DNA from: Narcine bancroftii
Lineage: Eukaryota
NCBI RefSeq assembly: GCF_036971445.1
Contig: NC_091472.1
Span: 90,520,001 to 90,584,000, forward strand
Length of the DNA: 64,000 bases
Direction: 5' to 3'
Shown here: positions 17,534-64,000 of the stretch, in pieces
How positions within the stretch are numbered: the stretch's first letter is position 1
How the letters are laid out: every line of letters begins with the position of its first letter
The notes under the pieces: generated by a model
Seen by the model: the letters and a program-made list of their open reading frames with translations, nothing else
Database searches by the model: none
What the model was told of the DNA's origin: nothing
Translations under genes and position numbers: made by a program

Positions 17534-17572
<39 letters not shown>

Positions 17573-18267
17573 AGGTAAACAGCCTTGTATAAATAAAACT
17601 TATCTTCAAAGATCCAAAAGGAATGGAGGTCTGTCTCTACCAAACTTTAGATATTATTATTAGGCAGTTAATATACAAAATTTATTATTGTTATTATATT
17701 TTGATAGTGTAGTTGATCATCTTGTTTGGGTAGAAATGGAATTGAATTTTTCTAATAATCTAGCTTTGTTGGCAGTTTTGAGATCTTCCTTACCCTTTTC
17801 ATTTTGGCAACTAACAGACAATCTGATTATGAGACATAGATTAAGGATATGGGCACAATTTAGAAGATTTTTTTGGTCTTTTTAATATTTCCATATCCAA
17901 TCCTATTATTAAGTATCATCTTTTTCAACCTTCTATGTTGGATGCAGGTTTTGGGGAATGGGTCAGATTAGGTATTAAAAGTTCTAGAGATTTGTATATT
18001 TGAGGTACGTTTGCTTTATTTGAATAATTATGAGTTAAATTTAATCTTTCTAATAGGTATTTTTTTAGATACTTAAAAATCAGACATTTTGCTCGTTTCA
18101 AACCCTAATTTTTCCCAAGTTCCCAAAATCACAGGGGAAGTCACGTGATGGAGTAGTGACCGGTAAGAAAATACTAGTCCTCTCCAGAAAAGTTTAAAAA
18201 AAGTAAAGAAAAAGCAAAGCCACAAACACAGAAACCATAACAAATTAAAAATAAAAGTGTGGAGAAA

Positions 18268-19732
18268 ATGGCAGCAAAGAAAGAAAAACCATAAACAACG
18301 GGAAGAAAAGAAGAAGAGAAAGGTGAAAGCCTTACCTGTACGAGGAGGCTCTCCGTGGAGAGAGAAGCCTGCTCCCTGAGGTCAGTGGAAACACCGAACT
18401 CAGGACTATAAAGATGGCTCACAGAGCCAAACAAAAGTGTCCAATTCGTGCATGCGCGATGCACAAGACAAAAACAACACCGACGGGAGGGGGACCAGCT
18501 GAGAAGTAAATCTCCACAGCTGAAACAGACAAGTATAACACAACAGCAAGACTCTCAACAGGAAAACATAGAAAATAACAGGAACAAGAAGGAAGAGAAT
18601 AAAAAAAGGAAATCAGAGAAACAACAGATGACCAACCCAGAGGAAGAAGATCAACACCAAGACACCTTTAATAAAAATAATAAAAACAAAAATACCCAAC
18701 AAATAAAATAAACAACCCAGCAAGAAAATCAGAAGTGACAGAAATAAAGGACACAGATCCTGGAGTGGACCCAGAAGAAGAGGAGGGAGAACATCAAACT
18801 CTACACAGAGAAATGGAAGATGAAGGAAAGGGACAGTACATGGATAAATTTTTTTTTAAAGAATATATGGAAACATTAAAAGAATGGCTGACACAAGAAT
18901 TCAGTGAAATAAAAAGAAGAATAAAAGGTACAGAAGAAAAAGTGAATAGATTAGAGATGCTCATGACAGAAATAGGAAAAAGAGTAGACAAGGTGGAAGA
19001 ATGAGAAACAGCTGTAGAAATGGAGGTAGATGACTTAAAAAAGAAATTAGAAGAATCTGATAAAAAAGTTAAAGAAACATAAGAGCAGTTAGCTCAGAAG
19101 ATAGATATAATGGAAAACTATAATAGGAGAAACAATATAAAGATAGTGGGCCTTAAGGAAGATGAAGAAGGCAAAAATATGAAATAATTTATAAAAGACT
19201 GGATCCCAAGGGTCCTAGGAATGCCAGAATTACAGGAAGGAATGGAAATAGAAAGGGCACACAGAACATTCTCATTCTTAGAATAACCATGGAAGGCAAA
19301 ATATTTTTCTTTGAATTCATCTTAATTCGTTCAAATCATCTTGATAATTATTTTAATTCATTGATTTGTTTGAAGTGGAATATCGTTATTATTTTACAGC
19401 GTGCTTTATTAATTCCTAAGATATATGACAAGAGAAAATATATTGGAGAAGGCAATGAAAAAAAAATAAGAGAAGACAAAAAACCACTGGAATACAAAAG
19501 TCAAAATTTTTTTTTCTACCCAGACATAATTTTTGAACTCCTGAAGAAGAGGAAGGAGTTTAACACAGCAAAATCGACCATATGGAAAAAAGGTTATAAA
19601 TTTATTTTAAAATATCCAGCGGTGCTTAAAATAGTTATCCTGGGGCAGCAAAGCAAACTATTCTCGGATCCGGAAAAAGCACAAAAATTTGCAGAACACC
19701 TACAAAACAGACAGAGAGATGAAGAGATGTAA
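18268..19732 (+). pseudogene. L1 ORF1 (coiled coil, RRM, CTD), disrupted
   Basis: ATG at 18268 (MAAKKEKP); ENYNRRNNIKIVGLKE, EIERAHR, FYPDI.FELLKKRKEF motifs. Contains several in-frame stops and a foreign segment at ~19271-19410. Confidence 0.88.
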
Positions 19733-20163
19733 CAAGAACAAAAATGACAACAAACTATATATAAAGAAGAATAAAGTATAAGTAAGAACTAAGAAGAGTA
19801 AGAAAGGGAAGAAAGGAAGTAAGGAGGGAATTAAGAGAGTGAGCTTTGTTATATATGAAGATTAAAATTTTTTCTGGTGGGGGCTGGGTGGGGAAGAATA
19901 ACAGTCACTGCGAAATCAGTTGATGCCTGCGAGCGGGTTCGCAAATCCAAATGGAGAGGGGAGATGTGGTTGCCCAACAAGGAACAAAGGACAACTCAGA
20001 GAGGGGAGGGACTATTGGGGTTAAAGGAATTTTAGATATGGGAATAGTGGAAATATTTTATGTTTTAGAAATGTTGTCTTACAATGTGTTTAAAAAAAAC
20101 CAGATGGATAAGAAGGGAAGGTGGTGATGAGGAAACGGAAAGGAAAGAGAAACAAAGAATGAA

Positions 20164-23100
20164 ATGGCCATGTTGAACTATATGACTTTAAATATTAACG
20201 GAATACATAACCAAATCAAAAGGAATAAGCTGTTAAATTTACTGAAGAAAGAAAAAATTGATATAGCATTCGTGCTAGAAACACATCTAACTGAAGTGGA
20301 ACACAAGAAATTAAAGAGAGATTGGATAGGACATGTAACAGCAGCATCATATAATTCAAAAGCCAGAGGAGTAGCTATATTAATCAGTAAAAATGTACCA
20401 ATCAAAATAGAAGAGGAATTCATAGATCCAGCAGGGAGGTATGTAATGATAAAATGTCAGATATATTCATAATTTTGGAATTTACTCAATGTATACTCAC
20501 CTAATGAAGAAGATCAAAAATTTATGCAAGATATCTTTTTGAACATCGCAGATACGCAAGGGAATATACTAATAGGAGGGGATTTTAACCTTAATTTGGA
20601 CTCAAACATGGATAAAACTGGAAAAAAGACCAACAGAAAGAACAAAGTAACCAAATTTATAATTAAATCGATGCAGAAAATGCAACTTTTGGATATATGG
20701 AGGAAACGACACCCAAAGGAAAATGAATATTCATATTATTCGGGTAGACATAAAACATACTCAAGGATAGACCTATTCCTGTTATCAGCCCACATTCAAG
20801 GAAGAGTTAGTAAAACGGAATATAAAGCTAGATTATTATCAGATCACTCACCCCTGTTATTGGCAATAGATCTGGAGGACATCCCACCAAGAATGTATAG
20901 ATGGAGATTAAACTCCATGCTACTTAAAAGACAGGATTTTAGAGAATTAATTGAGCGACAAATTAAAATGTACTTTGAAATAAATACAGAATCAGTGAAA
21001 AATAAATTTATACTATGGGACGCAATGAAAGCATTCATCAGAGGACAGATAATAAGTTATGTAACTAAGATGAAGAAGGACTACAATCGAGAAATAGAAC
21101 AATTGGAAAGGGAAATAACAAATACAGAAAAATAATTAGCAATAAAGGAAGATACAACTAAAAGAAGAGAATTGACAGACAAGAAAATAAAATATGAAAC
21201 ACTACAAACATATTAGGAGGAGAAGAACATAATGAAGACAAAACAGAAGTATTATGAGCTATGAGAAAAAGTGCACAAAATGCTAGCTTGGCAGCTAAAG
21301 ACAGAACAAACCAAAAGAATTGTATTGGCATCAAGGAAAAAGGACAAACAAATTACATATAACCCAACGGAGATCAACGAAAGTTTCAGGGAATTCTACG
21401 AACAACTATATCAAACTGAAAACGAAGGGAAAGAAGACAAAATAGATGAATTTCTAACTAAAATTGAACTACCAAAATTGCAAACAGAGGAGCAAAATAA
21501 ATTAATAAAACCATTTGAAATAGAAGAAATACAGGAGATATTTAAAAAACTACTGAACAATAAAACACCGGGAGAGGATGGACTCCCAATAGAATTCTAT
21601 AAAACATTTAAAGACTTATTAATTCCCCCTCTCTTGGAAGTAATGAACCAGATTGAAGAAACACAAAACATGCCATATTCATCCAAAACAGCAATAATTA
21701 CAGTAATACCAAAGATGGGGAAAGGTCCACTAACACCAGCAACATATAGACCAATATCTCTACTTAACACAGATTATAAGATAATAGCTAAACTATTAGC
21801 AAACAGATTGGCCGACTGTGTACCAAAAATAGTAAAACTAGTCCAAACTGGATTTATTAATAAAAGACAAACAATGGACAATATCTGTAAATTCATTAAC
21901 TTAATCCATGCAGTACAAGGAAACAAAACTCCAACAGTAGCGGTTGCTTTAGACGCAAAGAAAGCCTTTGACAGAGTAGAATGGAATTATTTATTCAAAG
22001 TACTACAAAAATTCAACCTACTAAAGAAATATATTAATTGGATTAAAGCATTATATAAGGGACCATTGGCGAAAGTGACAGTAAATGGATATATATCAAA
22101 GCAATTTAAATTAAGCAGATCAACAAGGCAGGGATGTCCACTATCTCCCTCACTGTTCGCGTTAGCTATAGAACCACTAGCAGAACTGGTAAGAACAGAA
22201 AATAAAATAAGAGGGATAAAAATAAAAGAGAAGGAATATAAAATCAATCTATTTGCAGATGACATTATAATATACTTAACAGAACCAGAAATATCAATAA
22301 AAGAATTACATAAGAAATTGAAGGAATATGGAGAAGTGTCGGGGTACAAGATTAACGCAAATAAATGTGAAGCAATGCCAATGAATAATGCGGATTTCAC
22401 AAAGTTTAAGAAAGAATCACCATTCAGATGGCAAACACAAGCAATTCGATACCTAGGTATACAACTAAATAATCTCTGCCATCTATATAAACAAAATTAT
22501 CAGCCATTAATGAAAAAATTACAAGACAACTTAGAGCACTGGAAAGACTTACCACTAACACTGATAGGAAGGATAAACTGTATTAAAATGAACATCTTCC
22601 CAAGGATACAATACCTATTTCAATCATTACCAATTCACCTAACAGAGAAATTCTTCAAGGAGCTAAAGAAAATAATAAGGAAATTCTTATGGAAAGGGGG
22701 GGAAACCGAGGATAGCACTAGATAAATTAACAGAATGGTACAAACAAGGAGGCTTACAACTACAAAACTTGAAGAATTATTATAGAGCAGCCCAATTAAG
22801 ATACCTATCAGATTTTTATCAAACAAGTGAAAAACCAGATTGGACCAGATTAGAGCTAGGTAAAATAGGGGAGAAGATACCTGAACATATACTATGTAAG
22901 TGGGATGAAAAATTGGTGCAACATAGGAATTCACCAGTATTGCACCATCTGCTCAACATTTGGAAGAAGATTCACGTAGAAAGGAATAAAATAAATGATC
23001 AACTACCAAAATTAATACTGACACAAAATCAACTAATTCCTTTCACAATAAATAACCTTTCCTTCAGAGAATGGGAGAGAAAAGGGATCACAAGAATAGA

Positions 23101-23958
23101 AAATTGTTTTTCGGGAAATAAATTATTATCTTTGAACAAAAGAAGGACAAATATAATATAACTCACGATACAATGTTTGCATACCACCAACTGAAAACCT
23201 ACTTGAAGGACAAATTGGGAAACAGTCTGAGGTTACCAGAAGGAAGCAATTTTGAATATGTGATTACAGACACAATGATAATTAAAAAATTTATAACAAA
23301 CATGTACATCAAACTGTAAGAAAAGGAGAACGAGGAAACAAATGGTAAACCTAAACAAAAATGGGGACAAGATCTAAACATAAAGATAAAGAATGAAATA
23401 TGGGAAAAGCTATGCTCCGGAACTATGAGAAATGCAATAAACACGAGGTTATGCATGATACAATATAATTAGTTACACAGGCTATACATCACACCCCAAA
23501 AGTTAAATAAATGGGACCCAACAGTATCAGACAGATGTTTTCGCTGTACGAAGGAAACAGGAACAACAATACATGCAATTTGGGCATGTGAGAAAGTGAA
23601 AAAATTTTGGGAAGATCTAAACCAGATATTAAATAAAATCACAAAAAACGACATACCAAAAAATCCAGAGATCTTTCTTCTAAGTAATATAAGAAATAAA
23701 GAATTTGGACTCGATTTGGATAGAGCACAAAAAAGATTTATTATGATAGCCCTAGCTGTAGCAAAAAAATGTATTATGTCAACCTGGAAATCAGAAGACA
23801 ACTTGAGAATACAATAATGGTACATAGAAATAAATAAATGTATTCCATGAGAAAAAATAACATATAATTTAAGAAATAACATCACAATATTCGAACAAAT
23901 ATGGGAACCATACATGAAACACAATAGAGAAATCCTACCACGGATCTCCACCACCTAA
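20164..23958 (+). pseudogene. L1 ORF2 (APE endonuclease + RT + C-terminal Cys region), disrupted
   Basis: MTLNINGI, LETHL, IGGDFN, YSRIDLF, SDHSP (endonuclease); PGEDG, YRPISLLN, LDAKKAFDRV, TRQGCPLSP, LFADD (RT); CFRC..E.GT..HAIWAC. Broken by stops (e.g. 20470, 21133) and frameshifts. Confidence 0.93.
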
Positions 23959-24789
23959 AATGACAGAAGGAGAAGACAACGAAATGAACTGACTCAGTAT
24001 GTAAAAGTAAAAGGCAAAAATTTCTTGTTTATTTTTATTAAGTGACGACATTGTTTAACAGGTTTAATGTATCTTCTAGATTGAACTTTGAATAAATGGG
24101 AAGGGGGTGAGAGAGGGAGGGAAGGGAGGGGGAAAAGGGGAGAAAATGACACTATATATTCAAGAAAAAAATGTCTGTATGTATTTTGGTCAGTATGGTT
24201 TTCATATGAAAAATAAAAAAATAAAAAAGTTCCCAAAATCACTATTCTTGATTTGCTTTTTGATATAAAGTTTCATCATAGTGGAATGATAGCAACCATT
24301 TATGATAAGATGATGGATTTAAAAATGGGCTTAGGGAATGTAATTAGGAGTGAATGGGAAAGAGATTTGAACATATCGATTTCAGGTGAAGATTGGGATA
24401 CTACACTTGTCCTGACTAACAATACCTCTTTTTGTGCACGACCTTGCCTATTGCAATTTAAAGTGATATATAGAATACATCTGTCTCAGTTAAATTATCC
24501 TGTTTTTATTCTGACATTGATCCACTATGCAATGATGCAGAATATATGAGGCAGCCCTTGTTCATACATTCTGGGAGTCTCCAAAACTGAAAGATTTTTG
24601 GGAACGATTTTTCAAGACGGTATCAGAGATTCTCAGGGTCAAATTGGATCCTTGACCTTGTATTGCTTTGTTTAGTTATTCTCAACAGGAAAATACTTCC
24701 TTGAATCTAACTCAAAGAAGAGTTGTAGCCTTTACTTTGTTGATAGCCTGAGGAGCAATTTTGATTAAATGGAAATATAGATACAGCAA

Positions 24790-30997: not shown

Positions 30998-31673
30998 AGA
31001 AATATGTACGCATTGCTCATGCAGATCAAGAGGCTGACCGGTGTCCGGCAGCTCCCACCTTTGCTGGCAAAATGCCGGCCGGTCGTTCTGGCTGGTGACT
31101 TCAACTGCATTATTGATGCGGTTGATGACTTGGTGGTGGTGACAGCAGACTGGATGATGTGGCAGTGCCAACGCCAGACTAGTTGGTCCAGCGGTGCTGA
31201 TAGATGACTGGACTGTTGCTCCATACTCCTGATGGAGATAATTAAGGGAATGCACAGCTGTAAAACACCTTCATCAACCTTCCACCTAGTCAAGATCGGA
31301 CGGCCCAACCCAATCTCGATAGACTTCTTCTTTGTGTTGAAGCCTGTCATGGTCATAACCACCAACATCACGCTGATGATCTTCTCTGACCATTGCCTCT
31401 TATGCACCTTCTTTCACCTACAGGAGAACCAAAAGGCAGACAGGGAAATGTGGAGGATGATCGTGAAGCTGCTGACCACAGAGAACATAGAAGAACTAAA
31501 GGAGGAGTTCGATGGTTGGAGAGATGTGGAACCCTTATTTAATTCCCCATTGAACTGGTAGGAAGTGACCAAAAAGAACATCAAGAGGTTCTTTATCATC
31601 AAAGGTACTCGGAGAGCAAAACAGAGGATGAGGGAACTGAATCAATTCCAGACTGACTTGCAGCAGTCCAGAG

Positions 31674-36287: not shown

Positions 36288-39179
36288 GTCTAGAGGGTGG
36301 ATGTGAAGGATGTGAGGGAGGAACTCCAAGAGCTGGAAAACCACATTATTCACTTCAGAGTCCTCCAAGACCATCTTCCGATCTAGAGTCCGTACAGTGG
36401 ATCAGGATGAGACAAGCTTATGCTTCTTATAAAAGGTTCACAGAGGGATCTCTGTATTCCGCAGCCTTAATGAAGAGGTTGGCTTAGTCACATCCTTACA
36501 GATGCCCATACAGAGGATCAGCAGATTCTATTATGCCAGTATGTAACACGAAGGGCACAAACAGCATGGCCTCCCAGAACCTCTCGTCCTCTATCACAGA
36601 GGTCTTAGATGACAGCAAATAGGAAAGCCTTGATCAGCCAATAACCCTGGGGAGATGATAATCTCCATCCATTCCTTTGGATTGAATAAAACACCTGGAA
36701 ATTACAGCTTACTGGGTGAGTTGTACATGACTCTGTGGGACTGACGGGTTTGACCTGCTGTAAGTGTACAGCACTATGCTCCTGGTCGGCAGTATGCCAG
36801 ACTCCATGAGGAAGGGTATCATCACTCTCATCTTAAAATATAAGGGGGAGAAGGAGGATATCAAGAATTAGGAGCCATAACCTTGCTTAATTTGATGACA
36901 AAATTCTGTCCAAAACTATAGCCAATCGAGTTAAGTCTGGCTTGGGAGGTGATTTACCCGGTTCAGGTCAGGAAAATCATCTGATGCCCTTGTGTGCTCA
37001 GGTAGACCATATACCATTGCCTATGTGCAGGACAGGAGGGTAGCCATCTGTGTGGTCACTTTGGACCAGGAGAAGGCTTTAGACTGGATATTGCACCCAT
37101 GATGGAGAAGCTATATGTTTTCCACCCATTGATTTGAACTGCACTATGGATATCTGTACAGAGCAGTTTAATTCAATTTCTGATTTCCTCCCAAAGCCCA
37201 TCTTGGAGAAGACATCTATGATCTTGTTGAATAGTGGAACAGAGTGGTCTACTCCTGCTCCAGTTTGCATATGTCCTTGTGTTAACAGGGTAAGGGTAAA
37301 TTAAATAAAAAATGTGATTTCCTTTTCCTGTATCATGCTGAAACTTTATCTGGCACTTGATACAGCAGTCATTTTGGGAATGTCAAACCAATTAAGTGCA
37401 ATGGCATCAATGCAGTGCAGGGTTGGAGTGTAAGATGAGCATTGTCTCCTGTGAATGAGGAAGCAGGGGAGAGGTATGGAGAACATCAAGGCTAGTGCTG
37501 GCTAAAGGTGAAGTGCCATCGATGTAGGAAGGTGGGACATGGATTGGAATGGAGCCTCCAGGACTGGAGAAACAAGGAAGCTGAGAACATTCAGCAGCAG
37601 GAGAGAGTTGTAGCCACTGCATTTGACAAGGACCTCGTCAGGTTCCAACTGAACTATTCTGAAGGGTGTGATTGGCTGACACATGCTATCAGATAGCAAT
37701 AATAGTTATTTTTCTACTTTTTTTCATGGTTTCGAGCTTTGAGTATGAAAGTTTATTGTCATATGTACAATATCCAGATGCATTGAAATTCTTACTTTTT
37801 GCAGCCACATAAAATATACCAACTATAATAATATAAATTAAAATTGCCACAATATGTCATGAGACAGAAATATGGATGGTAAATACATGGTGCAAAAATG
37901 CAATGCTTTATATGTTTTGTGCAGAAAATATTTGGAATTTCAAGGTGTGGGTTTGGCAGGTGAGGGTTGAGTAGTGTTTGTGATTTTCTATATGTTGCTA
38001 CTTCATTAGCAAATATACAGAGGTAGATCTTTAATTGAATATCCTTTGCAGAACGGAGTCACTCAACTAAACAGCAGTAACTGTTCATGATGCTGAATGA
38101 AGAATCAAACCCTTCTTAGAGGTGCCATTCATGTACACACCCCAGGTTCTATTTTGAAAAGGAAATAGCAATGGAATTAATTAAAATATGCATGAAATTA
38201 TAGAAGTTCAAACCATTTTGAACACAATCAGTTATTTGGACTCTTCATTCACTGAGCTTTCACTGCAAGCACATGGGATGTTTCTGAAGTAACCACCCAG
38301 TAATATCTCAGTGAATCATTTGCACAGTTAGCCTCAGACACATCTACACATACCGTCCTTTCCATTCTGTAACTGTTTTCTTTAAATACATTGCATTTTT
38401 TGAATGCATTGTATTGGGTGTTTAATGAGACCATATTCTTTATTCACTGTTCACATAAAACTTAACAGAGTCCAGTAACCTTTAGGAGGAAAAATGGTTA
38501 TAAACTCACTTTGCATATGTTACATTTGATGCATACCATGAACTTATTTGGAACAGTGTTTCCTTGGGTCTACTTTGGTTGCCCATGGAAGCAGTAGAGG
38601 CGACCTGATTAAATATATTTAAGACACAAATAGATAGATTTCTGTATCATAAAGAGAAATGAGTAAAAGGCAAGTACGTTGCTCTGAGTCCATGGCCTGA
38701 TCGACCATGATCTTATTGAATAGTGGATGTGCTTAATGGGCCAGATGGCTGACTCCTGGTCCTATTTCTTATGTTCTTCACCATCCCCTATTTTAGTACC
38801 TTTGTCCAACTGCCTCTCTGTAGCACCAGGCCTTCTTTTCTGCTTCATCTTTGAAGTCCTTAGGATCTGTTTCTGAGCTATAATTCTACAGTGCTTTTGA
38901 TACAGAACAGCCTCTCTGATACACTGACTCATGCTGGTGCCACACTCTGGCCCATTGGTTTCTCGGATCCCCCTGCTGTTTATTGCAAATATCCTTTCAA
39001 TAACACAGTGCTCCCAATTCAGGTGACTTGATCCAGCTTACTCGCACGATCACTAGCGCATGCTCACAACCTGTCACTATGAAAGGCAGCCGGACCCATC
39101 CCTCCCTCCCAGCCACACAACAGTTTATCTATCCCATACACGGAGGGTCCATTCTTCTTAGGCGCTCAGTGGGACAAAC

Positions 39180-47729: not shown

Positions 47730-50700
47730 TGTGGTGATACAAGCACCACACTGGCTGCACTCCCACCAGCCAACTGCAGGGAGAAACCATTGTACCTGCA
47801 GGTAGGCAACCTGGGAGGCTGGCCCCACATGGCCGGCTGTCAATCACTGACCTGTATAAAGACTCGAGACAGCCCCTCCCAGGTCAATCAGACACATGGA
47901 GCCAGCAGAGGACAGCAGGGCACATGTGGGCCATCAAGATATGACAAATGGTGTGTACAGAGTTTAAGTCGATTAAAACCTGTAGTACAGTCTTTTCTCA
48001 TGTTTTGTGTTTGCTTGTGTTGGCCTGTGTATGACTGAGACAGGGATGACCGAAGAGGAGGTGGAGCAACTTGTCCAAGATGCCTGCGTGTGACGGTTGC
48101 GGTCGAGGGCCACCCAGCAGAGACTGCTGGAAGAAAATACTGGAGGTAGTTCACTCTCTGGAAGCTGCACCACGTAGAAACCTTCAATGCTCAACTCCCC
48201 CAACCTCTGGCCTGGCTGACACCAATGGCTGTAATTGCTGAGGGGCCCCATGTGGAAGAGACTATCACTGCCACTGACGCAGTCTGCCACTGCAAGTACT
48301 GCGGGTCCTGGTGTGGGTCGGACAGGCGCTCCTGAAAGAGCTGACCGGCGAGGAACTTGCATTGCTCTCAATGTGGTAAGAAAGGCCACTTCGCTAAGGT
48401 GTACCTCTCTAGACCCACCGGAAGCATTGTGGCCCTCTATGATCAACCAGGAGCCCCCCCCCCCACCCCCTGGACATCGCCATATGTGAATACCGGGAGG
48501 CACCATTACTCGGCCTGTCACTTCTGCCCGCACCACTGACGTCACTTCCGGCGCAGCCACTCACCCTCACCGCTGCTGTGTACTCACCACAGGGGCCGCC
48601 ATCTTCCATTACCCGACTTCCGCCCGCACCGAAGACGTCACGTCTGCCCACACCAATGATGCCACCTCCAGCCTCACTTCCGGTTGGGTCACCCGACTGC
48701 ACCAAAGCCACATGTATCCAGTAGGTGCCGCCATCATGAGCCAACTGGCCCTAACTGCCTCAACTTGCTCAACTCACTGATGGGACGATGTGGTCAACAT
48801 GTGTGCATACACAACCTCGCACCCACCCACCCCATGTTCCAAAGGTAAACCGGTTGCCTGTAGCATGGAGAGGCCGCAGGTGGATTGGGGGCAGTCGCTG
48901 GGTTTTGTGCTGTGGATGGTAAATGGGTGGAGTGGGCCACTAAAGGCAAGGGTGAGGCTTTGGAGGTGGCACTGGAAGTCCATCCCCAGGATGACAAGGG
49001 CACAGAGCTTGGGCATGACCAGGAGCCTGAACCCTTGACATCACAACCATTAGAGAGCAGCGACTCAGATCCTGAGGACTTGAGGTGGTTCTAGTGTCCA
49101 CCACGCTAACAGAGGACATTCCACATGGACTTGGGCACTTGATGATGGACATCACTGCCAATGGGAAGGTAACAAAGCACCTGTTTAATAGGGTAGTACT
49201 GAGAGCTTTGTGCACCTGAATGTGGCCCATATGCTGAATTAAAGGTATGCCCCATGAACTTCTCTATCGCCTTCACTGTCCAGGACCACTCTATAACAGC
49301 ACTCGGGCTCTGCTCAGCAGACTTGACAGTGGGAGGGGAACATATCAAGGGTTCAGGTTCTTGGTCATGCCCAAGCTCTGTGCCCCTGTCATCCTGGGGC
49401 TGGACTTCCAGTGCCACCTCCAAAGCCTCACCCTTGCCTTCAGTGGCCCACTACACCCATTCACCATCCACAGCACAAAACCCAGCGACTGCCCCCAATC
49501 CACCTGCGGCCTCTCCACACTACAGGCAACCCTTCCTGCCCTCTTCAACTACCTTATGTCAGACTGCAAGCCCATAGCTGCCAAGAGCAGGTGCTATTGT
49601 GCGGCCGACAGGACCTTTATCAAGGAAGACATGAGACGGCTTCTGATGGAGGGAAACATAGAGCCCAGCACCAGCCCCTGGAGAGCCCAGGTCCTGATCT
49701 TAAAAGGGGGCAGGAAACAGAGGATGTTCATTAACTATAGGCAGACCATCAACCGATACACCCAGCTGGATGCCTACCCTCTGCGCTAATCGCTTACATA
49801 GTCAATGAGATAGCCCAGTATAGGGTCTTCTTCACGATTGACCTGAAGTTGGTCTACCACCAGCTCCCCATCCACACCCTGGATAAACCTTAAACCATCT
49901 TTGAGGCAGATGGTCACCCCTACCAGTTCTGCTGAGTTCCCTTTGTGGTCACAAATGGGGTCTCTGTTCCAGCAGGAGATGGGCTGCATGGAAGACCAGC
50001 GCAATCTAAGAGCAACCTTCCCATACCTGGATAATGTCACCATCTGCGGCCATGACCAGCAGGACCACAATGCCAACCTGTAGAGATTTCTCTGGATGGC
50101 TGAGGAGCTGAACCTCACTTACAACAGAGTGTTCAGCACCACCCACTTCGCCACCCTGTGGTACATCATGGAACATGGTGTCATTGGTCCTGACCCTGAA
50201 CGCATGCACCCCTTAATGGAACTACCCCTTCCTCACATGCTCAAGACCCTCCTTAAGTGCCATGGGCTTTTCTCTTACTACTCCCAGTGGGTCCCCCGCT
50301 TCTCGGAAAAGGTCTACCCACTGGGCCGCCACCACTTTTCCCCTCCACCCCCAAGGCGCAAGCGGCCTTTGCGCACATCAGACAGTACATCGCCATTCCA
50401 GGTGGAGGGCAATGCCTCTGATGTTGCCCTTGCTGGCATTCTTGACCAAGGGGGCAGACCCGTGGCCTTTTTCTTCAGGACCTTCCACGGTTCTGAGCTC
50501 AGGCACTCCGCCATTGTAAAGAAGGCCCAGGCGATTGTGGAAGCAGTCTGCCATTACTGCCACTACCTGGCAGGCAGGAGGTTTATCCTCCTCACTGACC
50601 AGCGCGCAGTGGCATTCACGTTCAGCATCACCCACAGAGGCAAGATCAAGAACTTCAAGATCTTGCACTGGAGAGTCAAGCTGGCCACGTTCAGCTACAA

Positions 50701-53405
50701 CATCCAGTACAGACCAGGGAAGTTCAACAACTCCCCTGACGCCCTGTCCCAGACCTATTCCAGTGCACAGTCCAACCAACTGCAGGCACTGCTTGACACC
50801 TTTTGCCACCCGGGCATCACGCGCCTGTATCACTTTATTAAGTCCTGGAACTTTTCTTTCACTGTCCAGGAGGTCCAGACTGTGACTGAGTCCTGCAGGG
50901 TCTGTGGGGAGTGTAAACTGCGCTTCTTCCACCCGCCACAAGTCCATATCATCAACACCACTTGGTCCTTCGAGCAACTCAACATCGACTTCAAGGGACC
51001 ACTGCCTTCCACAAACAAGAATGTCTATTTCCTCTCAGTCATAGACGAATACTCCCGTTTTCCCTTCACCATCCCTTGACCTGCTACCTCCACCGCCTCC
51101 GTTATCAGGGCACTGGCGCAGATCTTCATGTTCAGATACCCAGCATTCATCCACAGTGACCGGGCGTCCGGCTTCAGAAGTGAGGAGCTGCACCAGTACC
51201 TGACAAAACAAGGCATTGTGGCTAGACGCATGACTAGCTACAACCCCGGGACAACAGGTAGGTGAAGTGTGAAAATGGGGTGATCTGGAAGGCAGTCCTC
51301 CTGGCCCTGAGGTTGAAAGGCTGTTCGTCTCCTTCCCAACGTGGCTAACGTCTCCAGGACTAGTACTCCTCCACAAGCACGTGCAGACTTACAAGTCTGA
51401 TCCTCTGGTTGAGCAGGTGCTCCTTCTCCATTCAAATTCAAACTACGCCTATGTCAGATAGCCCAATGGACGTGAGGTCACTGTCTCAACCAGCAGGGGC
51501 CCAACCTCTCCACCATGGGTACCCTGCCCAACCTTCCCACTAAGGGCACCCTTTGCCCACCCAGGATTCCCTGGGAGCCGACTCCCACCCTCCGTCTCTC
51601 CAGAGGGCCCCACCCCTCACGGACCTGCCACACACATACATCTCCTCACTGCCAGACACCACCTTGCCCACACCACTGGCTGCCCTGGCCATCCCAGCCC
51701 CAGCTGACCCTTCAGTTCGTTTGTTTTTATGGAAAAGTAAATTATCTAGAATCACTTTGCAAAAACTGACTTAGAAATATGCTTTAGAAGGTTTGCAATT
51801 ACCAAATTTTCAGAATTATTATGAAGTAGCACAATTGAAATTTATTAACCGAATGTCAGACACTGAACAAATTCCAGTATAGGCAAAAGTTGAATTGTCA
51901 CAAATATCAGAGTAATGCTAATTATTTTATATATATATGGAGACCGAATTTTTTAAAGACTTATAACGTATCTGTACTTATACATTTATTGGAAATTTTG
52001 TATAAAAGAGATTAAATGATTGGAACTAAGGGTAAAATCACTGCTCAGACCCCTATTTATCGGAATAAGATTATTCCATTTTCTATGGTTCGTCACTATT
52101 TGAAGGATTGGGAATTGAAGGGTATCAGAATGATGGGAGATTGTTTTGAGAAGGGCGTTTTTCTTTCTTTTGCTCAACTGCAAGATAAATTTGGGATATC
52201 AGTGAATTCAATATTTGCTTTTAATCAAGTGTGAGCTTTCTTAAAAGAAAATTTTGGACAGGAATTTAAATTTCCCAATTTGACTAGGTTTGAAAAGTTG
52301 ATTATAGAAACCTTGAAAAAAGGTTTTATATCAGGAACATATGCATTATTGCAAGAAAAGATGAATAAACCTGGTGTTTTTAAAATAAACGATAAATGGG
52401 AGAAGGAATTACTACTTTTTATATCAGAGGAAGATTGGGTAAAGATATGTGAAGATGCTGTAACGAGGTTGATTAACATGAGGTATAGTTTAATTAATTA
52501 TAATTTTTTACATCAGTTATATCTGACTCAGGAAAAGTTAAAACAATATGGTTTTAGGGATTCAGATTTATGTTTTCTACATTCGGTTTGGTCTTGTGAA
52601 AAGGTGCAAAGCTTTTGGGTGAAGATGAGAGAATTTTTGGAATGTTTGTACAATATTCAGTTATTAGTTGATCCATTATTCTTTTTATTGGGAATTATGC
52701 AAATATAAAAGTGGGTTTAAAGTTGGATAAATTTCAAATTGCATTAATTCGCTTGGTTCTAGCTGTGGCTAGAAAATATATTGCGGTAACATAGAAGGAT
52801 GATGTAGAGATAAATATTCAAAGATGGCACAATGAGTTGAAATCATGCATTTATTTAGAAAAAATAACATTTAATTTACACTAAAATGTGGGAACCATAC
52901 TTAAAATATATGGGTTTGAATATATTTTAATCTTTCTTTTTATAACAAAAAGGCACTCACTTCTGTATGTTAACATATTTGTAAAAGGCTCCGTTATTAT
53001 GAAGGAGTAGGGGTAGTTTGGGTTTTTTTTTGTAGTGGGGTAGTTGGATGGGGGGAGGGGTATTTATAAATAATGAATTGTAATATGGGGTTTTTATATA
53101 TATATTTCTGTACTTTATGGAACCCACATCATTGGCCGCGCTCCCATCAGCCTACTGAAGGGGGCAACCTCTGTATGTGCAGGTAGTCAACCTGGGAGGC
53201 TGGCCCCACCTGGCCGGCTGTCAATCACCGAACTGTATATAGACTCGAGCCGGCTCCTCCCGGAGCCAGCAGAGGACAGTCGGGCACAGTGGAGCGAGTC
53301 ATTAAGATATGACAACTGGTGTGTACAGAGTTTAAGTCAATTAAAATCTGTAGTACAATCTTTTCTCGTGTTTTGTGTTTGCTTGCTGCACCACAGCGCA
53401 TCACA
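47730..53405 (+). mobile_element. Gypsy LTR retrotransposon, rearranged and decayed
   Basis: Related LTRs at 47730-~48020 and ~53115-53405; 5-bp TSD AACTG (47725-47729, 53406-53410); CSQCGKKGHFAKV knuckle, PSTSPWRAQV, YLDNVTICG, LLTDQ and IDFKGPLP. The 5' LTR end, PBS and gag start are deleted. Confidence 0.9.
51716..53112 (+). mobile_element. 5'-truncated L1 fragment inserted near the 3' end of the Gypsy element
   Basis: GLQLPNFQNYY, WEKEL, NYNFLHQLYLT, LHSVWSCEKV, LAVARK and LEKITF; G-rich 3' UTR. Confidence 0.85.
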
Positions 53406-58069: not shown

Positions 58070-58535
58070 GTGGCAGCAAAAGCAGGGACCTCAGGCTCCT
58101 GGGCAGGACTGGCAATGGTGGTGGGCAGGTCTGGGATCTGAGCAGGGACCTCAGGCTCCCGGGCAGGACCAGGAATGGCGGTGCGCAGGTATCTGAGATC
58201 AGAGCAGGGACCTTGGGCTCCTGGGCAGGACCGGCAGTGGCAGGTGTCTGGGATTAGAGCAGGGACCTCAGGTTCCCGGGCAGTTTTGGCAACAGCAGTG
58301 GGGAGGTATCTGGGATCGGAATGGGGACCTTGGACTCCTAGGCAGGTTTGGCGACAGTGGTGGGGAAATGTCTGGGATTGGAGTGGGGACCTCAAACTTC
58401 TGGGCAGGTTCGGCGACAGCGGTGGGGAGGTGTCTGGGATCAGAGCAGGAACCTTGGGCTCCCAGGCAGGTTTGGCGACAGCAGTGGGGAGGTATCTAGG
58501 GTCAGAGCAGGGACTTCAGGCTCCCAGGCAGGTTT
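58070..58535. repeat. GC-rich ~58-62 bp minisatellite, about 8 units
   Basis: Repeating AGCAGGGACCTCAGGCTCC(C/T)GGGCAGG...GGGAGGT.TCTGGGATC; the last unit resumes at 60925-60970, after the L1-derived insertion. Confidence 0.85.
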
Positions 58536-60924
58536 GTTTTTTTTTAAATTTTTCACACCATAAATCACATTAGCCATGATATACATTATTTCTTTTTCAC
58601 ACATATACAGTGACTTTTTCTCCCCCCCCCCCTCCTCCCAAGCCACCCCCCACCCCCCCCTCTCATCCATTTTAGGTATACAATCTAGGTTGCATTAAGC
58701 CAGTCAGACAATGTTGTCATTCAACAAAAATACACCAGAAATTCTACTGAGTCCATTCTTTTCTTTCCTTCTCCTTCCATCAACTTAGGTAATGTTTGTC
58801 CCCGGTAGGTTTTCGCTATTGTATTTAATGTAAGGCTCCTATACTTGTTCGAATATTTCAATATTATTTCTTAACCTATATGTTATTTTTTCTAATGGAA
58901 TACATTTATTCATTCAAATTTAGTAGTTTCTTCCTTTTAATTTGGTTATGTATTCCATTAATATTTAAAGTCATATAGTTCAGCGTAGCCCTTTTATATT
59001 TTGTTTATCTTCTCTTTCCATTTTTCCATCATTACCTTTCCTCCTTTTCCATTTCTGTTTTCTTATTTTCAACTCTTTATAAGACAACATTCCTACAACA
59101 TCCAACATTTTCCTTATTCTCCTATTTCTATCTTATTTATCCCCAATCTCCCCTTCCCCTCCTGAGTTGTCCTTTATCCCTTGTCGGACAACCACATCTC
59201 CCCTCTCCATTTGGATTTGCGAATCCACTCGCAAGCGTCAACTGATTTTGCAGTGACCGCTATTTCCCCCCACCCTGCCCCCCCCAGAAAAGATTTCACT
59301 TTTCATATGTCACAAAGGTCACTCTTTTAATTCCCTCCTTATTCTCTCTATTCCATTACCTTCCCTTATTAATTCTTGTCTATACTATCTATATTTTCCT
59401 CTAAGTACAGATACATTCACGTATGCACATTGTCTCTATTCACTCTTATACCTCTTTACCCGCATACATATCAATCGTGATCATTTTTACTCTCATTACC
59501 CGTCTTCATCCCTCAGTCTATTTTTGTCTTTACCCACATACATATCAATCGTGATAATTTTTACTCTCATTACCCGTCTTCCTCCCTCAGTCTATTTTTG
59601 TAATTGTTCTGCAAATTTTCGTGCTTCTTCTGGATCCGAGAATAGTCTGTTTTGTTGTCCTGGAATAAATATTTTCAATACCGCAGGATGCTTCAGTATA
59701 AATTTATACCCTTTCTTCCATAAAATCGCCTTTGCTGTATTGAACTCTTTTCTCTTCTTTAGGAGTTCAAAACTTATATCTGGATAAATGAAGATTTTTT
59801 GCCCTTTATACTCCAGTGGTTTGTTGCCCTCTCTTACTTTTTCCATTGTCTTCTCCAGTACCTTATCTCTTGTAGTATATCTTAGGAATTTTACTACAAT
59901 AGATCTTGGTTTTTGTTGTGGTTGTGGTTTAGAGGCCAATACTCTATGTGCCCTTTCTACTTCCATTTCTTGCTGTAGTTCTGGACATCCTAGGGTCTTA
60001 GGGATCCACTCTTTTATAAACTCCCTCATATTCTTGCCTTCTTCATCTTCCTTAAGGCCCACTATCTTTATGTTATTTCTTCTGTTATAATTTTCCATTA
60101 TATCTATTTTTTGAGCTAGTAGTTCTTGTGTCTCTTTAGTTTTTTTATTAGATTCCTCCAATTTCTTTTTTAAGTCTTCTACCTCCATTTCTGCTGCTAC
60201 TGCCCGCTCTTCCATCTTGTCCATTTTCTTTCCCATTTCTGTTAAGGTCATATCTATTTTATTCATTTTCTCTTCTGTGTTGTTTATTCTTTTTCTTAAA
60301 TCATTAAATTCCTGTGTTTGCCATTCTTTAAATGACTCCATGTATCCTTTAATAAGAGCAAGTATATCCTTTACCTTGCCTTTCTTTTCTTCTTCTATTT
60401 CACTGTACTCTTCCTCTTCCTCTTCTTCTTCCTCTGGGTTGGCCATCTGTTGTTTCTTTGTTGCCCTTTCCTTCTCTTCTTTCATGTTTCTATTGTCTTT
60501 TGTGGTCTCTTCTTGCTGCAGGTGTTCTGCAGCTGTCGTTGCCGGCTGTGGAGATCGACTCCCCAGCTGGTCCCCCCTCCCGTCGGTGTTTTTTTTTCAT
60601 GCGCGGTTGTGCACTTTTACTCGGCTCAGCGAGCCATTTTTGTAGTCCATTATTTACCGACCTGAGGGAGCGGGTTTCTCTCTCCGCAGCGGGCCTCTTC
60701 GGACAGGTAAGGCCTTCACCTTTTTCCTCCTTTGTCTTCTCTTCCTCTCTTCTTACCGTTGCTTTCGATTTTTCTTTTTTTGTCGCCATCTTCTTTCCAC
60801 CTTTATACTCACTTTTCTGTAACTTTTATTTCTGTGCCTTTGTGTTTTCCTTTGTTTTTCCCGACTTTTCTGGAGAGGGCTGGAGTTCACCGTCCGGCCA
60901 CTACTCCATCACGTGACTCCTCTC
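58536..60924 (-). mobile_element. ORF1-only non-autonomous L1 derivative (HAL1-like), 2.39 kb
   Basis: 15-bp TSD CTCCCAGGCAGGTTT (58521-58535, 60925-60939); 5' end GAGAGGAGTCACGTGATGGAGTAG, like the L1 at 18133; poly(A) tail at 58537-58545; ORF2 5' stub joined to ORF2 3' stub near 58915. Confidence 0.92.
59592..60485 (-). CDS. L1 ORF1p (297-aa open portion; extends to ATG 60789, ~398 aa, if one base is removed from the C6 run at 60572-60577)
   Basis: Uninterrupted coiled coil, ENYNRRNNIKIVGLKE, EVERAHR, PRSIVVKFLRY, IFIYPDISFELLKKRKEF and HPAVLKI; collinear with ORF1 of the 18133 element. Confidence 0.88.
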   Translation of the reverse strand: MKEEKERATKKQQMANPEEEEEEEEEYSEIEEEKKGKVKDILALIKGYMESFKEWQTQEFNDLRKRINNTEEKMNKIDMTLTEMGKKMDKMEERAVAAEMEVEDLKKKLEESNKKTKETQELLAQKIDIMENYNRRNNIKIVGLKEDEEGKNMREFIKEWIPKTLGCPELQQEMEVERAHRVLASKPQPQQKPRSIVVKFLRYTTRDKVLEKTMEKVREGNKPLEYKGQKIFIYPDISFELLKKRKEFNTAKAILWKKGYKFILKHPAVLKIFIPGQQNRLFSDPEEARKFAEQLQK

Positions 60925-61177
60925 CTCCCAGGCAGGTTTAATGATGGCGGTGGTGAGGTGTTGGGAATTGGCTATGGCTGATACAAGTACTATATTCTGC
61001 TGATGCTACTGGGCTGCCTAAAGCCATTTCTCAGTTATCCAAAAAATGCATATACATACCTGGTCCTGAGCATTTCAGATAATGGCACATTATCAAACAC
61101 CATCTGGAAATCCAAGTGTACAACTTCCACCTTTTCCCTCTATTCACTGCACTTGTTATATCATCAAAAAATTCCAG

Positions 61178-64000
61178 TGCAGTGAACTGAGATTCACTGG
61201 GAGAGTGCTGTTTCGATGACTGGCCCTGCCTCCCGGCTCCACCCCCATTTACTCACATATAACCCTGGTTTCCCGCCTAAAGCCAGAACCCCTCTGAAGC
61301 CAACAGTGAGCCCTACCTGTTGCTGAAAGCTAATAAAAGTGTTTGTTCTCCCTCCAGTCGTGTGAGAGCTTTTATCTACGCTACAATTTTATTACCCAAG
61401 CCCAGTATGCTGTTATAGGCCCCCAGTATCCTGTCACGGCTTAGGAGCTTGCATATTGGCTAGACTGCTTCCAGGCCTACCTGAACACAACCAGGAATGT
61501 CTTCCACACAGACGAACTCCAGAAGTCAGCGCTCATCTCCAGTGTAGGAACGAAGGGATATGCTGCTGTCAGAGACTGCCAGATGTATGAAGCCGCCATC
61601 AAGGCACTGAAAACTTGCTACATGAAGGCCCTGAATGAGGTCCTAGCGAGGGACTGGCTCATTCTACATTGCCAATAGTCTAGAGAGTTGATTGACAACT
61701 ACCTGCTGGATCTGCGGATGCTTCCGAAGAAGTGCAGGTATGAAGTGGCTTTAGGCCGCGTTCGAGAAGATTAACAGATCCAGGACACTCTGGTCACAGG
61801 GGTCCGCTCGAGGTACGTGAGGCAGCAACTACTTGAGTTGGAAAAGAAGGACCTCGCTAGTCACGTCCAGCTGACTAAATCACTGGAACAGGCCAGGCTC
61901 GAAAATGATGATCTCGAAGCCAGCAAATTCATGCTCTCAGGTGAGCACCTCCAAGGACCTGCAGCTCCCACTACGGCTGCCCCTGCTCTAATGGCTGCCA
62001 CTTCCCGTGCCAGGGAGTGCTTTGTCTGCAGAAAAGGTCAGCACCTCCAAGACCATTGCCCTGCTAAAGACTTGGTGTGCTCCACCTGTGGAAAGAAGGG
62101 ACATTGGGCAAGGATCTGCTGCGCAAAGGGAGGTCCGGTTAAGTTCACAGCCTGCACTGCTTCTGGATCCAAGTCCAGCCCCAAGCTGTCTGCCCTGTAC
62201 TTATGTGAGATTGCCTACTGCGCAATCCGGCACCTTTGGAAATGATGCGAAAGGCTCGGTGGCCATCTTGTTGTGGCCCAAATTCAAATTTGGTGCCATC
62301 ATTGTCAGAGGAGGAAGGAAGGCAGCCACCTTGCCATGCCACGAGGTCGGTGCCATCTTACCTGCACAGTTCAACTCAGGGTGGAGGGGGCCACTCGAAC
62401 GAGGAACAAGGCATCTCCGGCAAACTGGCATCACTGGTCTTTGACCAGAACAGATCTCACCAGCTCAGTAGCTCTATGGTAATGGTGAAGGTAAATGGAT
62501 ATTCTACCAAGTGCCTAATTGACACGGGCTCCACAGAAAGTTTTATAGACTCACGTACTGTACAAAAGTATAACTTAAAAATGTATCTTTCTAATTATTG
62601 AATCTTCCACATGTCTCAATCCCATTCGGTGCATGTAGAAAAACATTGTATAGTTTATCGTTCGAAGTTTGTAAATTTTGTAAATTTCGATTGTATATTT
62701 TGGATGAATTGTGTGCTCTGGTACTGTTGGGTCTGGACTTCCTGTATCACCTTAAAATGTGACCTGGGAGTTTTCTGGTCCCCTCCCCCCTGAAGTGCTT
62801 TGGAATGGAGAGCCCTCAAAATCAGGATCCACTTGCAGCCTCTCCACGCTGAACATCGACCCTCCCCCTCTATTCCCAAACCTGTCTGTCAACTATAAGC
62901 CCATCGCCACCAAGAGCAGGAGGTACAGTGTGGCAGTCAGAGAGTTTATAAGGATGAGACCCAACACCTGCTGGAGGAGGGGATCATCGAGCCCAGCACC
63001 AGCTGTGGAGAGCGCAAGTGGTGGTTGTAAAGGGGGAAAACAAGTCCAGGCTAGTAATTGACTATAGCCAAACTATCGGTACACACTCCTGGATGCATAC
63101 CCCCTCCCTTGCATTTTGGATATGGTGAATGATATCGCGCAGTTTCGGGTTTATTTGACCATTCACCTGAAAGCTGCCTATCACCAGCTGCCAATCCATT
63201 CGAGGACTGCCTGAACACAGCATTTGTGAATAACAGTCGACTCTATCAGTTCTGGAAGGTCCCTTTCAGCATTACCAACGAGGTTCCTATCTTCCAGCGG
63301 CAGATGGACAGAATGGTGGACGAGTACAGGTTGAAGGCTACCTTCCCTTACCTCAACAATGCCATAATCTGTGGCCACACCATGGAAGACCATGATGCCA
63401 ATCTCCAGAGCTTTCTCCATGCGACGAGAGCCCTGAATCTCACTTATAATTCCAACAAGTGTGTATTTAGGACTATACGACTCACTATCCTTGGCTATGT
63501 GGTGGATAAAGGTGTCATTGGCCGCGATCCAGATAGGATGCACCCCCTCTTAGAGCTCCCTGTTCCTAGGACCACAAAGGCTTTGAGGAGATGTCTGGGG
63601 CTTTTCTCATATTATGCCCAATGGGTCCCTCAATATGCTGACAAGATTTGTCCCCTCTTAAAGGCCACCACTTTCCCCCTTTCAGCCAAAGCCCAGCCGG
63701 CTTTCAATTACCTCCAAAACCATATTGTGAAATTCCAAGTGGAGAGTAATGCTTCGGACATAGCCCTGGCTGCCACCCTCAATCAGGCGGGCAGGCCTAT
63801 TGCATTTTTCTCACAGATTTTACAAGGCCACAAGCTTTAGAACCCGTCAATGGAAACGGAGGCTCAGACCATTGGAGAAGCCAAAAGGCACTGGAGGAAC
63901 TACCTGGCTGGTAGAAGATTTACACTCCTTACGGACCAGTGCTCTGCCACATTCATGTTCAGCAACGCCAAGAGAGGCAAAATCAAGAATGACAAAATTG
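61178..64000 (+). mobile_element. Gypsy LTR retrotransposon, decayed, running off the right edge of the window
   Basis: LTR ~61178-61385 (TGCAGTG...CGCTACA, TATAA, AATAAA); two knuckles CFVCRKGQH...C and CSTCGKKGHWARIC; protease CLIDTGS; RT ATFPYLNN; RNase H SNASD and LLTDQ. Confidence 0.9.

What the first reader, a model, noticed from the sequence alone, without database searches (positions are those of the whole stretch)
58536..60924. ORF1-only 'half-L1' that looks younger than the autonomous-type L1 nearby
The element has a complete 5' end, a poly(A) tail and a perfect 15-bp TSD. ORF1 has no stop codons apart from one homopolymer indel. ORF2 is reduced to about 25 N-terminal codons (ATG replaced by AGG; LNYMTLNINGIHNQIKRKKLLNL) fused near 58915 to the last ~40 codons (NKCIPLEKITY...), so about 3.6 kb is missing relative to 20164-23958. 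The ORF2 stub has decayed (lost start, internal TAG) while ORF1 is clean, which suggests the short form replicates as a family under selection for ORF1p in cis and borrows ORF2p in trans. Established: ORF1-only HAL1 elements are known, mainly from mammals. An independently derived one with visible ORF2 scars would capture the birth of such a parasite.
Basis: partly seen in the sequence, partly recalled or inferred. Interest (0 to 1): 0.72.

Follow-up and report, generated by a model that had tools for sequence, protein, structure and literature searches.

The report
Young ORF1-only LINE-1 copy, probably half-L1
This is a recently inserted jumping gene that keeps LINE-1's RNA-binding gene and both ends but has lost its copying enzyme; it probably belongs to an abundant family that borrows the enzyme from complete LINE-1s, a way of life already known from mammals.

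Summary
The anatomy is real. 58536-60924 (-) is a 2,389-bp L1 with a complete 5' end, an L1-type ORF1, a 9-A tail and an exact 15-bp TSD. It lacks 3,588 bp of ORF2 against the L1 at 18134-24226. Its closest named relatives are Narcine bancroftii (electric ray) ORF1 proteins, up to 93% alike. It is young: 8 differences in 1,054 bp against the main contigs of one run. Both sides of the junction lie in very abundant sequence. The ORF2 stubs are no more decayed than ORF1 (dN/dS 0.24 vs 0.18). The TAG is a minority state. The join is out of frame, and this copy's ORF1 is frameshifted. The decisive test, many copies sharing the junction, was not achieved: no genome is held and no listed contig bridges the junction. 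Indirect signs favour a family: no variant row at the lost start codon, depth only about twofold higher at the 3' end, and run-on contigs that resemble the older long subfamily. Best reading: a HAL1-type non-autonomous family (about 0.7), a new member of a known kind.

The parts
60925..60939 (.). Target-site duplication, copy at the element's 5' side (15 bp). On the element strand the site reads TT|AAAC, like an L1-endonuclease nick site.
   Evidence: the nick-site likeness is from established knowledge of L1 endonuclease (recalled)
60790..60924 (-). 5' UTR, complete. Begins with a purine run and a CACGTG-containing palindrome shared with the long L1. CpG-rich; probable internal promoter (inferred).
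   Evidence: X8 piece 60767-60922 with 0 differences
60598..60789 (-). ORF1 N-terminal 64 codons from the ATG; identical (64 of 64) to XP_069785941.1
60588..60598 (-). Frameshift in ORF1: net 32 nt shorter than the main X8 contig, in a stretch of short internal repeats that varies in length among relatives
   Evidence: tables 3 and 5c
59592..60596 (-). ORF1 main frame, 334 codons: coiled coil, RRM and C-terminal domain of L1 ORF1p. Ends at the same residue as XP_069785941.1, earlier than XP_069740564.1.
   Evidence: 2YKP E 1.6e-19; 2YKO E 1e-10
59453..59601 (-). 74-bp tandem duplication (96% alike) over the ORF1 end and the start of the inter-ORF spacer; not known whether family-wide
58993..59591 (-). 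Inter-ORF spacer, 78% like the long L1 over 389 aligned bases
58916..58992 (-). ORF2 5' stub, 25 codons, starting AGG where the long L1 has ATG; its reading stops at 58906-58908
58915..58915 (-). Deletion junction: one G that belongs to neither side of the long-type sequence; no microhomology and no GT-AG intron ends; out of frame
   Evidence: (table 7)
58785..58914 (-). ORF2 3' stub, 42 codons plus stop, with a minority TAG at 58839-58841
58546..58784 (-). 3' UTR with a G-rich tract, 74% like the long L1
58536..58545 (-). Short tail: 9 A and one C
58521..58535 (.). Target-site duplication, copy at the element's 3' side
58081..58536 (.). 62-bp degenerate tandem array (7.5 copies) into whose last unit the element inserted
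18134..24226 (+). Comparison element: full-length, dead L1 of an older subfamily, 16-bp TSD (18117-18132, 24227-24242), ORF2 with endonuclease and RT domains, 9 stops and 2 frame changes in the matched ORF2

Best explanation
A recently inserted, already broken copy of a non-autonomous ORF1-only L1 family (HAL1 type), probably in an electric ray or close relative. Steps: (1) SHOWN: an L1 lost 3.6 kb of ORF2 but kept its 5' UTR, ORF1, spacer, 3' UTR and A-tail. (2) SHOWN: this unit, or its longer precursor, inserted by L1-style target-primed reverse transcription (15-bp TSD, TT|AAAC site, A-tail). (3) SHOWN within the limits of contig data: ORF1, spacer and both stubs belong to very abundant, young sequence. 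(4) INFERRED: the 2.4-kb form itself is the replicating unit. Source copies are transcribed from the retained 5' promoter and make ORF1p, which coats their own RNA; ORF2p is taken from full-length L1s, which exist in the same runs. (5) INFERRED: the deletion is recent against the split from the long subfamily, so the stubs have had no time to decay. (6) SHOWN: this copy cannot make full-length ORF1p from its first ATG.
For: Anatomy. ORF1p identity by profile and fold. A second copy of the same ORF1 subfamily is annotated elsewhere: XP_069785941.1, 64 of 64 and 315 of 334 residues the same, same C-terminal end. Run X1: 24,838 contigs laid; median summed depth 448,948 on the 5' side of the junction, 956,483 on the 3' side, 988,924 in the junction bin, 2,686 in flank bins; X8: 55.5 / 109.2 / 165.2 / 1.05 (the tool warns this is no copy number). 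The 3'-to-5' ratio is about 2 in X1 and X8, as expected for a short unit. Youth: 8 differences in 1,054 bp over 7 of the 8 listed X8 pieces (the eighth, gapped, depth 4, left out); 16 in 1,004 bp over 4 of 7 listed X12 pieces (three short poly-G pieces left out). No row at the AGG codon among the 40 of 241 variant rows shown, although rows at 25-33% share in X1 are shown, so AGG is probably the majority state. Four loose-end motifs tested (59596, 58914, 58916, 58982) all match the long-type L1 with 0-2 mismatches (the 15-mer is weak, 23 of 100 shuffles), so run-on contigs at the junction can be explained by the older full-length subfamily. No ORF2 protein above 61% identity was listed in two searches (best 120 of 624 hits; 5 hits), against three named ORF1 proteins at 88-93%. 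Prior reasoning (inference): a clean loss of just ORF2 in a young, full-ended copy is much likelier if a family has that form.
Against: No listed contig bridges 58915 (only 31 pieces shown, 31,097 not shown). Contigs do run on into ORF2 at both breakpoints (X1: 35 at 58914, 58 at 58916; X5: 31 at 58914; X8: 2 at 58916), and their depth is not given, so the young subfamily could be mainly full-length. The far part of the X1 loose end at 58914 differs from the long L1 and may be such a subfamily. In X5 the 3'-to-5' ratio is 7.25. A ratio of 2 is also possible for a very young full-length family. The stubs show no excess decay. The junction was found in none of three public collections, though these are microbial or viral and were not expected to hold it. 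The ORF2 searches were limited to longer proteins and are weak evidence by the tool's own note.
Confidence: 0.7

Rival explanations
1. A single dead copy of a young, abundant, full-length L1 subfamily that lost ORF2 once, either by a template jump during insertion or by a later genomic deletion. There is no short family; AGG, TAG and the frameshift are private changes.
For: No bridging contig is listed; run-on contigs exist at both breakpoints. The stubs are as conserved as ORF1. TAG and the frameshift are minority states. The copy carries other local rearrangements (74-bp duplication, 32-nt loss). The join lacks microhomology, which fits end-joining.
Against: No variant row at the AGG codon (40 of 241 rows shown). 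The tested run-on motifs match the older long type. Depth is high and nearly flat to the 5' end in X1 and X8. The deletion spares all of ORF1 and both UTRs.
Confidence: 0.22
2. The short form is multi-copy but a passive passenger: it is mobilised in trans with both proteins from full-length L1s, and its ORF1 is retained only because the deletion is recent (no selection on ORF1 in cis).
For: No excess decay of stubs over ORF1; this copy's ORF1 is frameshifted. ORF1p supplied in trans supports low-level retrotransposition of defective human L1 RNA (PMC5860796, passages).
Against: Of the 4 ORF1 sites shown where 79% or more of X1 depth differs from this copy, 3 are synonymous (p about 0.04, tiny sample from a cut table). 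XP_069785941.1 keeps a 401-residue open frame.
Confidence: 0.05
3. Repeated retrotransposition of a spliced L1 RNA (SpIRE type), with ORF2 removed as an intron, or an assembly error.
For: Spliced, internally deleted L1 RNAs retrotranspose in humans (PMC5860796, abstract and passages). The long-type sequence has AG near the 3' breakpoint.
Against: The missing segment does not start with GT in the long-type sequence, there is no pyrimidine tract before the 3' breakpoint, and one unassigned G sits at the join. An assembly join is unlikely to give clean TSD-bounded ends with one foreign base, but reads from the locus were not seen.
Confidence: 0.03

Closest known systems
HAL1 (half-L1) of mammals, especially rat RNHAL1
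   Same: L1 derivative that encodes ORF1p only and arose by loss of ORF2; arose several times independently (PMC5753468, passage). [quoted passage not shown]
   Different: The closest named relatives here are from a cartilaginous fish; ORF1p is only about 24% identical to human ORF1p, so this is a separate origin. Both ORF2 ends remain readable. Multi-copy status of the junction is not shown. The original HAL1 paper (Bao and Jurka 2010) was not held and was seen only through citing passages.
ORF1-present bipartite non-autonomous LINEs (HeT-A from Jockey, Ag-Sponge from CR1, HAL1 from L1)
   Same: Keep the 5' and 3' parts of a LINE plus ORF1 after an internal deletion (PMC5786205, passages).
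   Different: HeT-A and Ag-Sponge belong to other clades; this element is L1 clade by ORF1 fold and by its ORF2 stubs.
Narcine bancroftii L1 ORF1 subfamilies (XP_069785941.1, XP_069740564.1, XP_069748261.1, XP_069749674.1)
   Same: ORF1p 93%, 92%, 88% and 69% identical. XP_069785941.1 shares the N-terminus and the shortened C-terminus.
   Different: These are protein records; whether their loci carry ORF2 could not be seen.
SpIREs (spliced integrated L1 copies, human)
   Same: Internally deleted L1 copies with normal insertion hallmarks (PMC5860796, passages).
   Different: The SpIREs described there lose 5' UTR or 5' UTR/ORF1 sequence at splice sites; here the promoter region and ORF1 are kept and the breakpoints are not splice-like.

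Membership tests
HAL1-type non-autonomous L1 | Encodes an L1-type ORF1p (coiled coil, RRM, C-terminal domain) | tested here: met
   Profile hits human LINE-1 ORF1p (2YKP, E 1.6e-19); model has helix 61-171 then RRM and CTD; Foldseek top 11 hits are all LINE-1 ORF1p. Pfam gave no hit at E 0.001. This copy has a frameshift after codon 64.
HAL1-type non-autonomous L1 | Lacks ORF2 (endonuclease and reverse transcriptase) | tested here: met
   3,588 bp missing; 25- and 42-codon stubs, out of frame
HAL1-type non-autonomous L1 | Keeps the L1 5' end and 3' end, with A-tail and TSD | tested here: met
HAL1-type non-autonomous L1 | The ORF2-less form is itself multi-copy, at many loci with their own TSDs | tested here: inconclusive
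   No genome held. Both sides of the junction are abundant, but no listed contig bridges it and run-on contigs exist.
HAL1-type non-autonomous L1 | ORF1 kept by selection after ORF2 was lost | tested here: inconclusive
   dN/dS against the long L1 is 0.18 for ORF1 and 0.24 for the stubs; this spans mostly the autonomous past. 3 of 4 shown majority differences in ORF1 are synonymous.
HAL1-type non-autonomous L1 | Mobilised by ORF2p of an autonomous L1 in trans | not testable with these tools
Autonomous L1 | ORF2 with endonuclease and RT domains | tested here: not met
   Domains are present in the long copy and absent from the short one.
SpIRE (spliced L1 retrocopy) | Deleted segment bounded by splice donor and acceptor (GT-AG) | tested here: not met
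   Judged on long-type sequence only: the missing segment starts AC, not GT, and one extra G sits at the join. The true parent subfamily was not available.

The most novel reading that the evidence does not exclude
A newly born HAL1-type parasite in an electric ray: a 2.4-kb ORF1-only family that arose from a lineage-specific L1, fixed the loss of the ORF2 start codon and a shortened ORF1 end, is as abundant as or more abundant than its autonomous helpers, and is young enough that the ORF2 scars are still readable. This would allow the parent, the moment of the deletion and the onset of selection on ORF1 alone to be dated on one tree. My searches listed no paper describing such a family in cartilaginous fish; Repbase and Dfam could not be checked.
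Probability: 0.35. Interest if true: 0.6.

Novelty: new member of a known kind. Interest (0 to 1): 0.4.

Why it matters
ORF1-only L1 derivatives are known and have arisen repeatedly in mammals, so the way of life is not new. A young, independent case in a cartilaginous fish would show that the route is open to vertebrate L1s in general. It would also give a clean test of an inferred idea: that ORF1p made in cis makes an RNA a better substrate for borrowed ORF2p (suggested for rat HAL1 in PMC2241872, passage). The ORF2 stubs would serve as a built-in neutral control beside ORF1. If the junction is unique, the element is an ordinary broken L1 copy.

Tried and rejected
Whole-genome junction count: not possible, no genome is held. 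Exact junction scans: 0 hits in metagenome contigs, viral contigs and prokaryote genomes; these collections were not expected to hold it. Parent ORF2 protein: none above 57% (best 120 of 624 listed, proteins of 852-2430 aa only) or 61% (5 hits, 180-2000 aa). Expression: no RNA holder listed; run X5 is RNA only by guess, so nothing is claimed on transcription. The word shares (0.88 at best) cannot separate junction words from private or poly-G differences. Asymmetric decay of ORF2 against ORF1: tested, not found. In-frame fusion protein: rejected; no open plus-strand frame crosses the join either. Splicing origin: not supported. Long L1 as parent: rejected, 70-80% identity. An exact empty-site joint (58535 to 60940) was not among the 15 of 132 joints shown. 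Pfam gave no family for ORF1p; profile and fold searches settled it. Earlier findings: none for this genome or sequence. No supplements were read; TE libraries in genome-paper supplements could already list this family.

Full report
WHAT IS THERE. On the minus strand, 60924 to 58536 is a 2,389-bp element between two exact 15-bp repeats, 60925-60939 and 58521-58535. It sits in the last unit of a degenerate 62-bp tandem array. On the element strand the site reads TT|AAAC, which resembles the L1 endonuclease target (recalled consensus). It aligns end to end with a dead, full-length L1 at 18134-24226, which has its own 16-bp TSD, at 70-80% identity. In order it holds a 5' UTR, ORF1, a spacer with a 74-bp tandem duplication, a 25-codon ORF2 5' stub, one unassigned G at 58915, a 42-codon ORF2 3' stub, a 3' UTR and a 9-A tail. 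The missing part equals 20241-23828 of the long copy, 3,588 bp.

ORF1. The 334-codon main frame has no stop. Pfam gives no family, but a profile of 7 relatives hits human LINE-1 ORF1p at E 1.6e-19. The model shows a long helix, an RRM and a C-terminal domain (mean pLDDT 73), and all 11 Foldseek matches at E up to 0.001 are LINE-1 ORF1p. The closest named proteins are from Narcine bancroftii. XP_069785941.1 is identical over the first 64 residues, 315 of 334 in the main frame, and ends at the same residue. So the window probably comes from an electric ray or a close relative (inference), and at least one other copy of this ORF1 subfamily exists. In this copy the first 64 codons are out of frame with the rest. 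A depth-32 contig of run X8 has 32 more letters at that place (table 5c), and relatives vary in length there in frame. This copy therefore cannot make full-length ORF1p from its first ATG.

ORF2 STUBS. The 5' stub starts AGG where the long copy has ATG and stops two codons after the join; the 3' stub is in another frame. There is no fusion protein. Against the long copy, dN/dS is 0.18 for ORF1 (230 codons) and 0.24 for the stubs (65 codons); the 5' stub keeps 22 of 25 residues; Fisher p = 0.85. The TAG is a minority state: 78-90% of laid depth in three runs has the Trp base. What the numbers do say is that the deletion is recent compared with the split from the long subfamily.

AGE AND ABUNDANCE. 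No genome is held. Thirteen of 19 listed runs hold part of 58600-59300, and four were laid on 58350-61650 at 85% likeness. In X1, 24,838 contigs were laid. Median summed depth was 448,948 on the 5' side of the junction, 956,483 on the 3' side, 988,924 in the junction bin and 2,686 in flank bins; X8 gave 55.5, 109.2, 165.2 and 1.05. The tool warns that this is no copy number, so I read it only as 'very abundant, with ends at the TSDs'. Seven gap-free X8 pieces differ from the window at 8 of 1,054 bases, and four X12 pieces at 16 of 1,004 (one gapped X8 piece and three short X12 poly-G pieces left out). The long copy has 5 stops in aligned ORF1 codons and 9 in matched ORF2. The short copy is clearly the younger.

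IS THE SHORT FORM A FAMILY? Not shown directly. Only 31 of 31,128 pieces were printed and none bridges 58915. Contigs do run on into ORF2 at both breakpoints (X1: 35 and 58; X5: 31 at one; X8: 2 at the other), so full-length relatives exist, and their depth is not given. Four indirect signs favour a family. First, four loose-end motifs, including two away from the junction, all match the older long-type L1, so that subfamily can account for the run-ons. Second, no variant row appears at the AGG codon among the 40 of 241 rows shown, although rows with 25-33% share in X1 do; a full-length active subfamily should read ATG there. Third, depth at the 3' end is only about twice that at the 5' end in X1 and X8 (7.25 times in X5). 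Fourth, two protein searches listed no close ORF2, against three close ORF1 proteins. Each sign is weak: cut tables, unknown depth of run-ons, length-limited searches. With the prior that a clean loss of just ORF2 in a young, full-ended copy is far likelier from a family than as a one-off, I put the ORF1-using family at 0.7, a one-off deletion at 0.22, a passive multi-copy form at 0.05 and splicing or artefact at 0.03.

HOW IT WOULD WORK. Source copies are transcribed from the retained 5' end, translate ORF1p, which binds their RNA, and are copied by ORF2p from a full-length L1 at TT|AAAA-like sites. Insertion hallmarks, ORF1 identity and loss of ORF2 are shown. Transcription, cis use of ORF1p and the helper are inferred from L1 biology: cis preference and trans mobilisation (PMC5860796, passages) and the proposal for rat HAL1 (PMC2241872, passage).

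COMPARISON WITH WHAT IS KNOWN. It works like HAL1, a non-autonomous L1 derivative that encodes only ORF1p and arose several times in mammals (PMC5753468, passage; PMC13756887, passage), one of the ORF1-present bipartite LINEs with HeT-A and Ag-Sponge (PMC5786205, passages). Three structural criteria are met; multi-copy status and selection after the deletion are inconclusive; trans mobilisation is untestable here. It is not descended from mammalian HAL1 (ORF1p about 24% identical to human). Bao and Jurka 2010 was not held. Searches pairing HAL1, LINE-1 or non-autonomous elements with Narcine, shark, cartilaginous fish, fish or elasmobranch (listings only, plus passages of PMC8535693) showed no report of such a family in cartilaginous fish. 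The library lacks most subscription papers, and Repbase, Dfam and supplements were not seen. Unchecked notes from this scan report ORF1-only families in several other genomes, which suggests the kind recurs often.

VERDICT. Observation partly confirmed; interpretation partly supported; new member of a known kind; interest 0.4. One BLAST of the junction against the assembly would settle the main open point.

Noticed in passing
window 16492-17747 and about 24243-24634 (+): The long L1 appears to be nested inside an older L1 of another family: ORF2 matches (24-33% to P0010) run up to its 5' side and resume after its 3' TSD.
   Followed up: partly
window about 19265-19410: About 145 bp of AT-rich sequence interrupts ORF1 of the long L1; no convincing source for it in the window.
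   Followed up: partly
window 51715-52914 (+): A third, 5'-truncated L1 of another family (ORF2 C-terminal part, 39-45% to P0010, several stops); no DNA-level match to the short element.
   Followed up: partly
window 31667-36294: LTR-retrotransposon-like stretch: aspartic protease (32736-33239) and RT-RNase H (33818-34720) domains between near-identical repeats 31779-31999 and 35807-36027 (95%); broken frames.
   Followed up: no
window 25818-27475 (-): LTR-retrotransposon remnant with integrase core and DUF7041 frames, with no RT seen between them.
   Followed up: no
window 49498-51079 and 61775-63989: Two related LTR-retrotransposon pol fragments (65% alike): RT-RNase H at 50084-51076; zinc knuckle at 61775-62242 and RT at 63133-63837.
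   Followed up: no
window 48852-49041 / 49342-49531: 190-bp inverted repeat pair, 95% alike, 300 bp apart.
   Followed up: no
window 58081-58536 and 60940-61010: The 62-bp array and the sequence after the TSD belong to a dispersed repeat: contigs of X1 and X5 join these two sides directly at several offsets (table 5).
   Followed up: partly
window 60905-60920 and 18139-18156: Both L1s begin with the same CACGTG-containing palindrome, conserved across about 30% 5' UTR divergence; a candidate promoter element of E-box type (label recalled, not tested).
   Followed up: no
proteins P0003, P0004, P0008: Three RefSeq Narcine bancroftii proteins named FAM122B, GrpE-like and mitochondrial transcription elongation factor are L1 ORF1 products by alignment, so the names look like mis-annotations.
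   Followed up: partly
window 59595: The one-base-longer A run that ends ORF1 early is the majority state among laid contigs (the shorter form is 3% in X1, 17% in X8) and the same end is seen in XP_069785941.1: a likely subfamily marker.
   Followed up: partly
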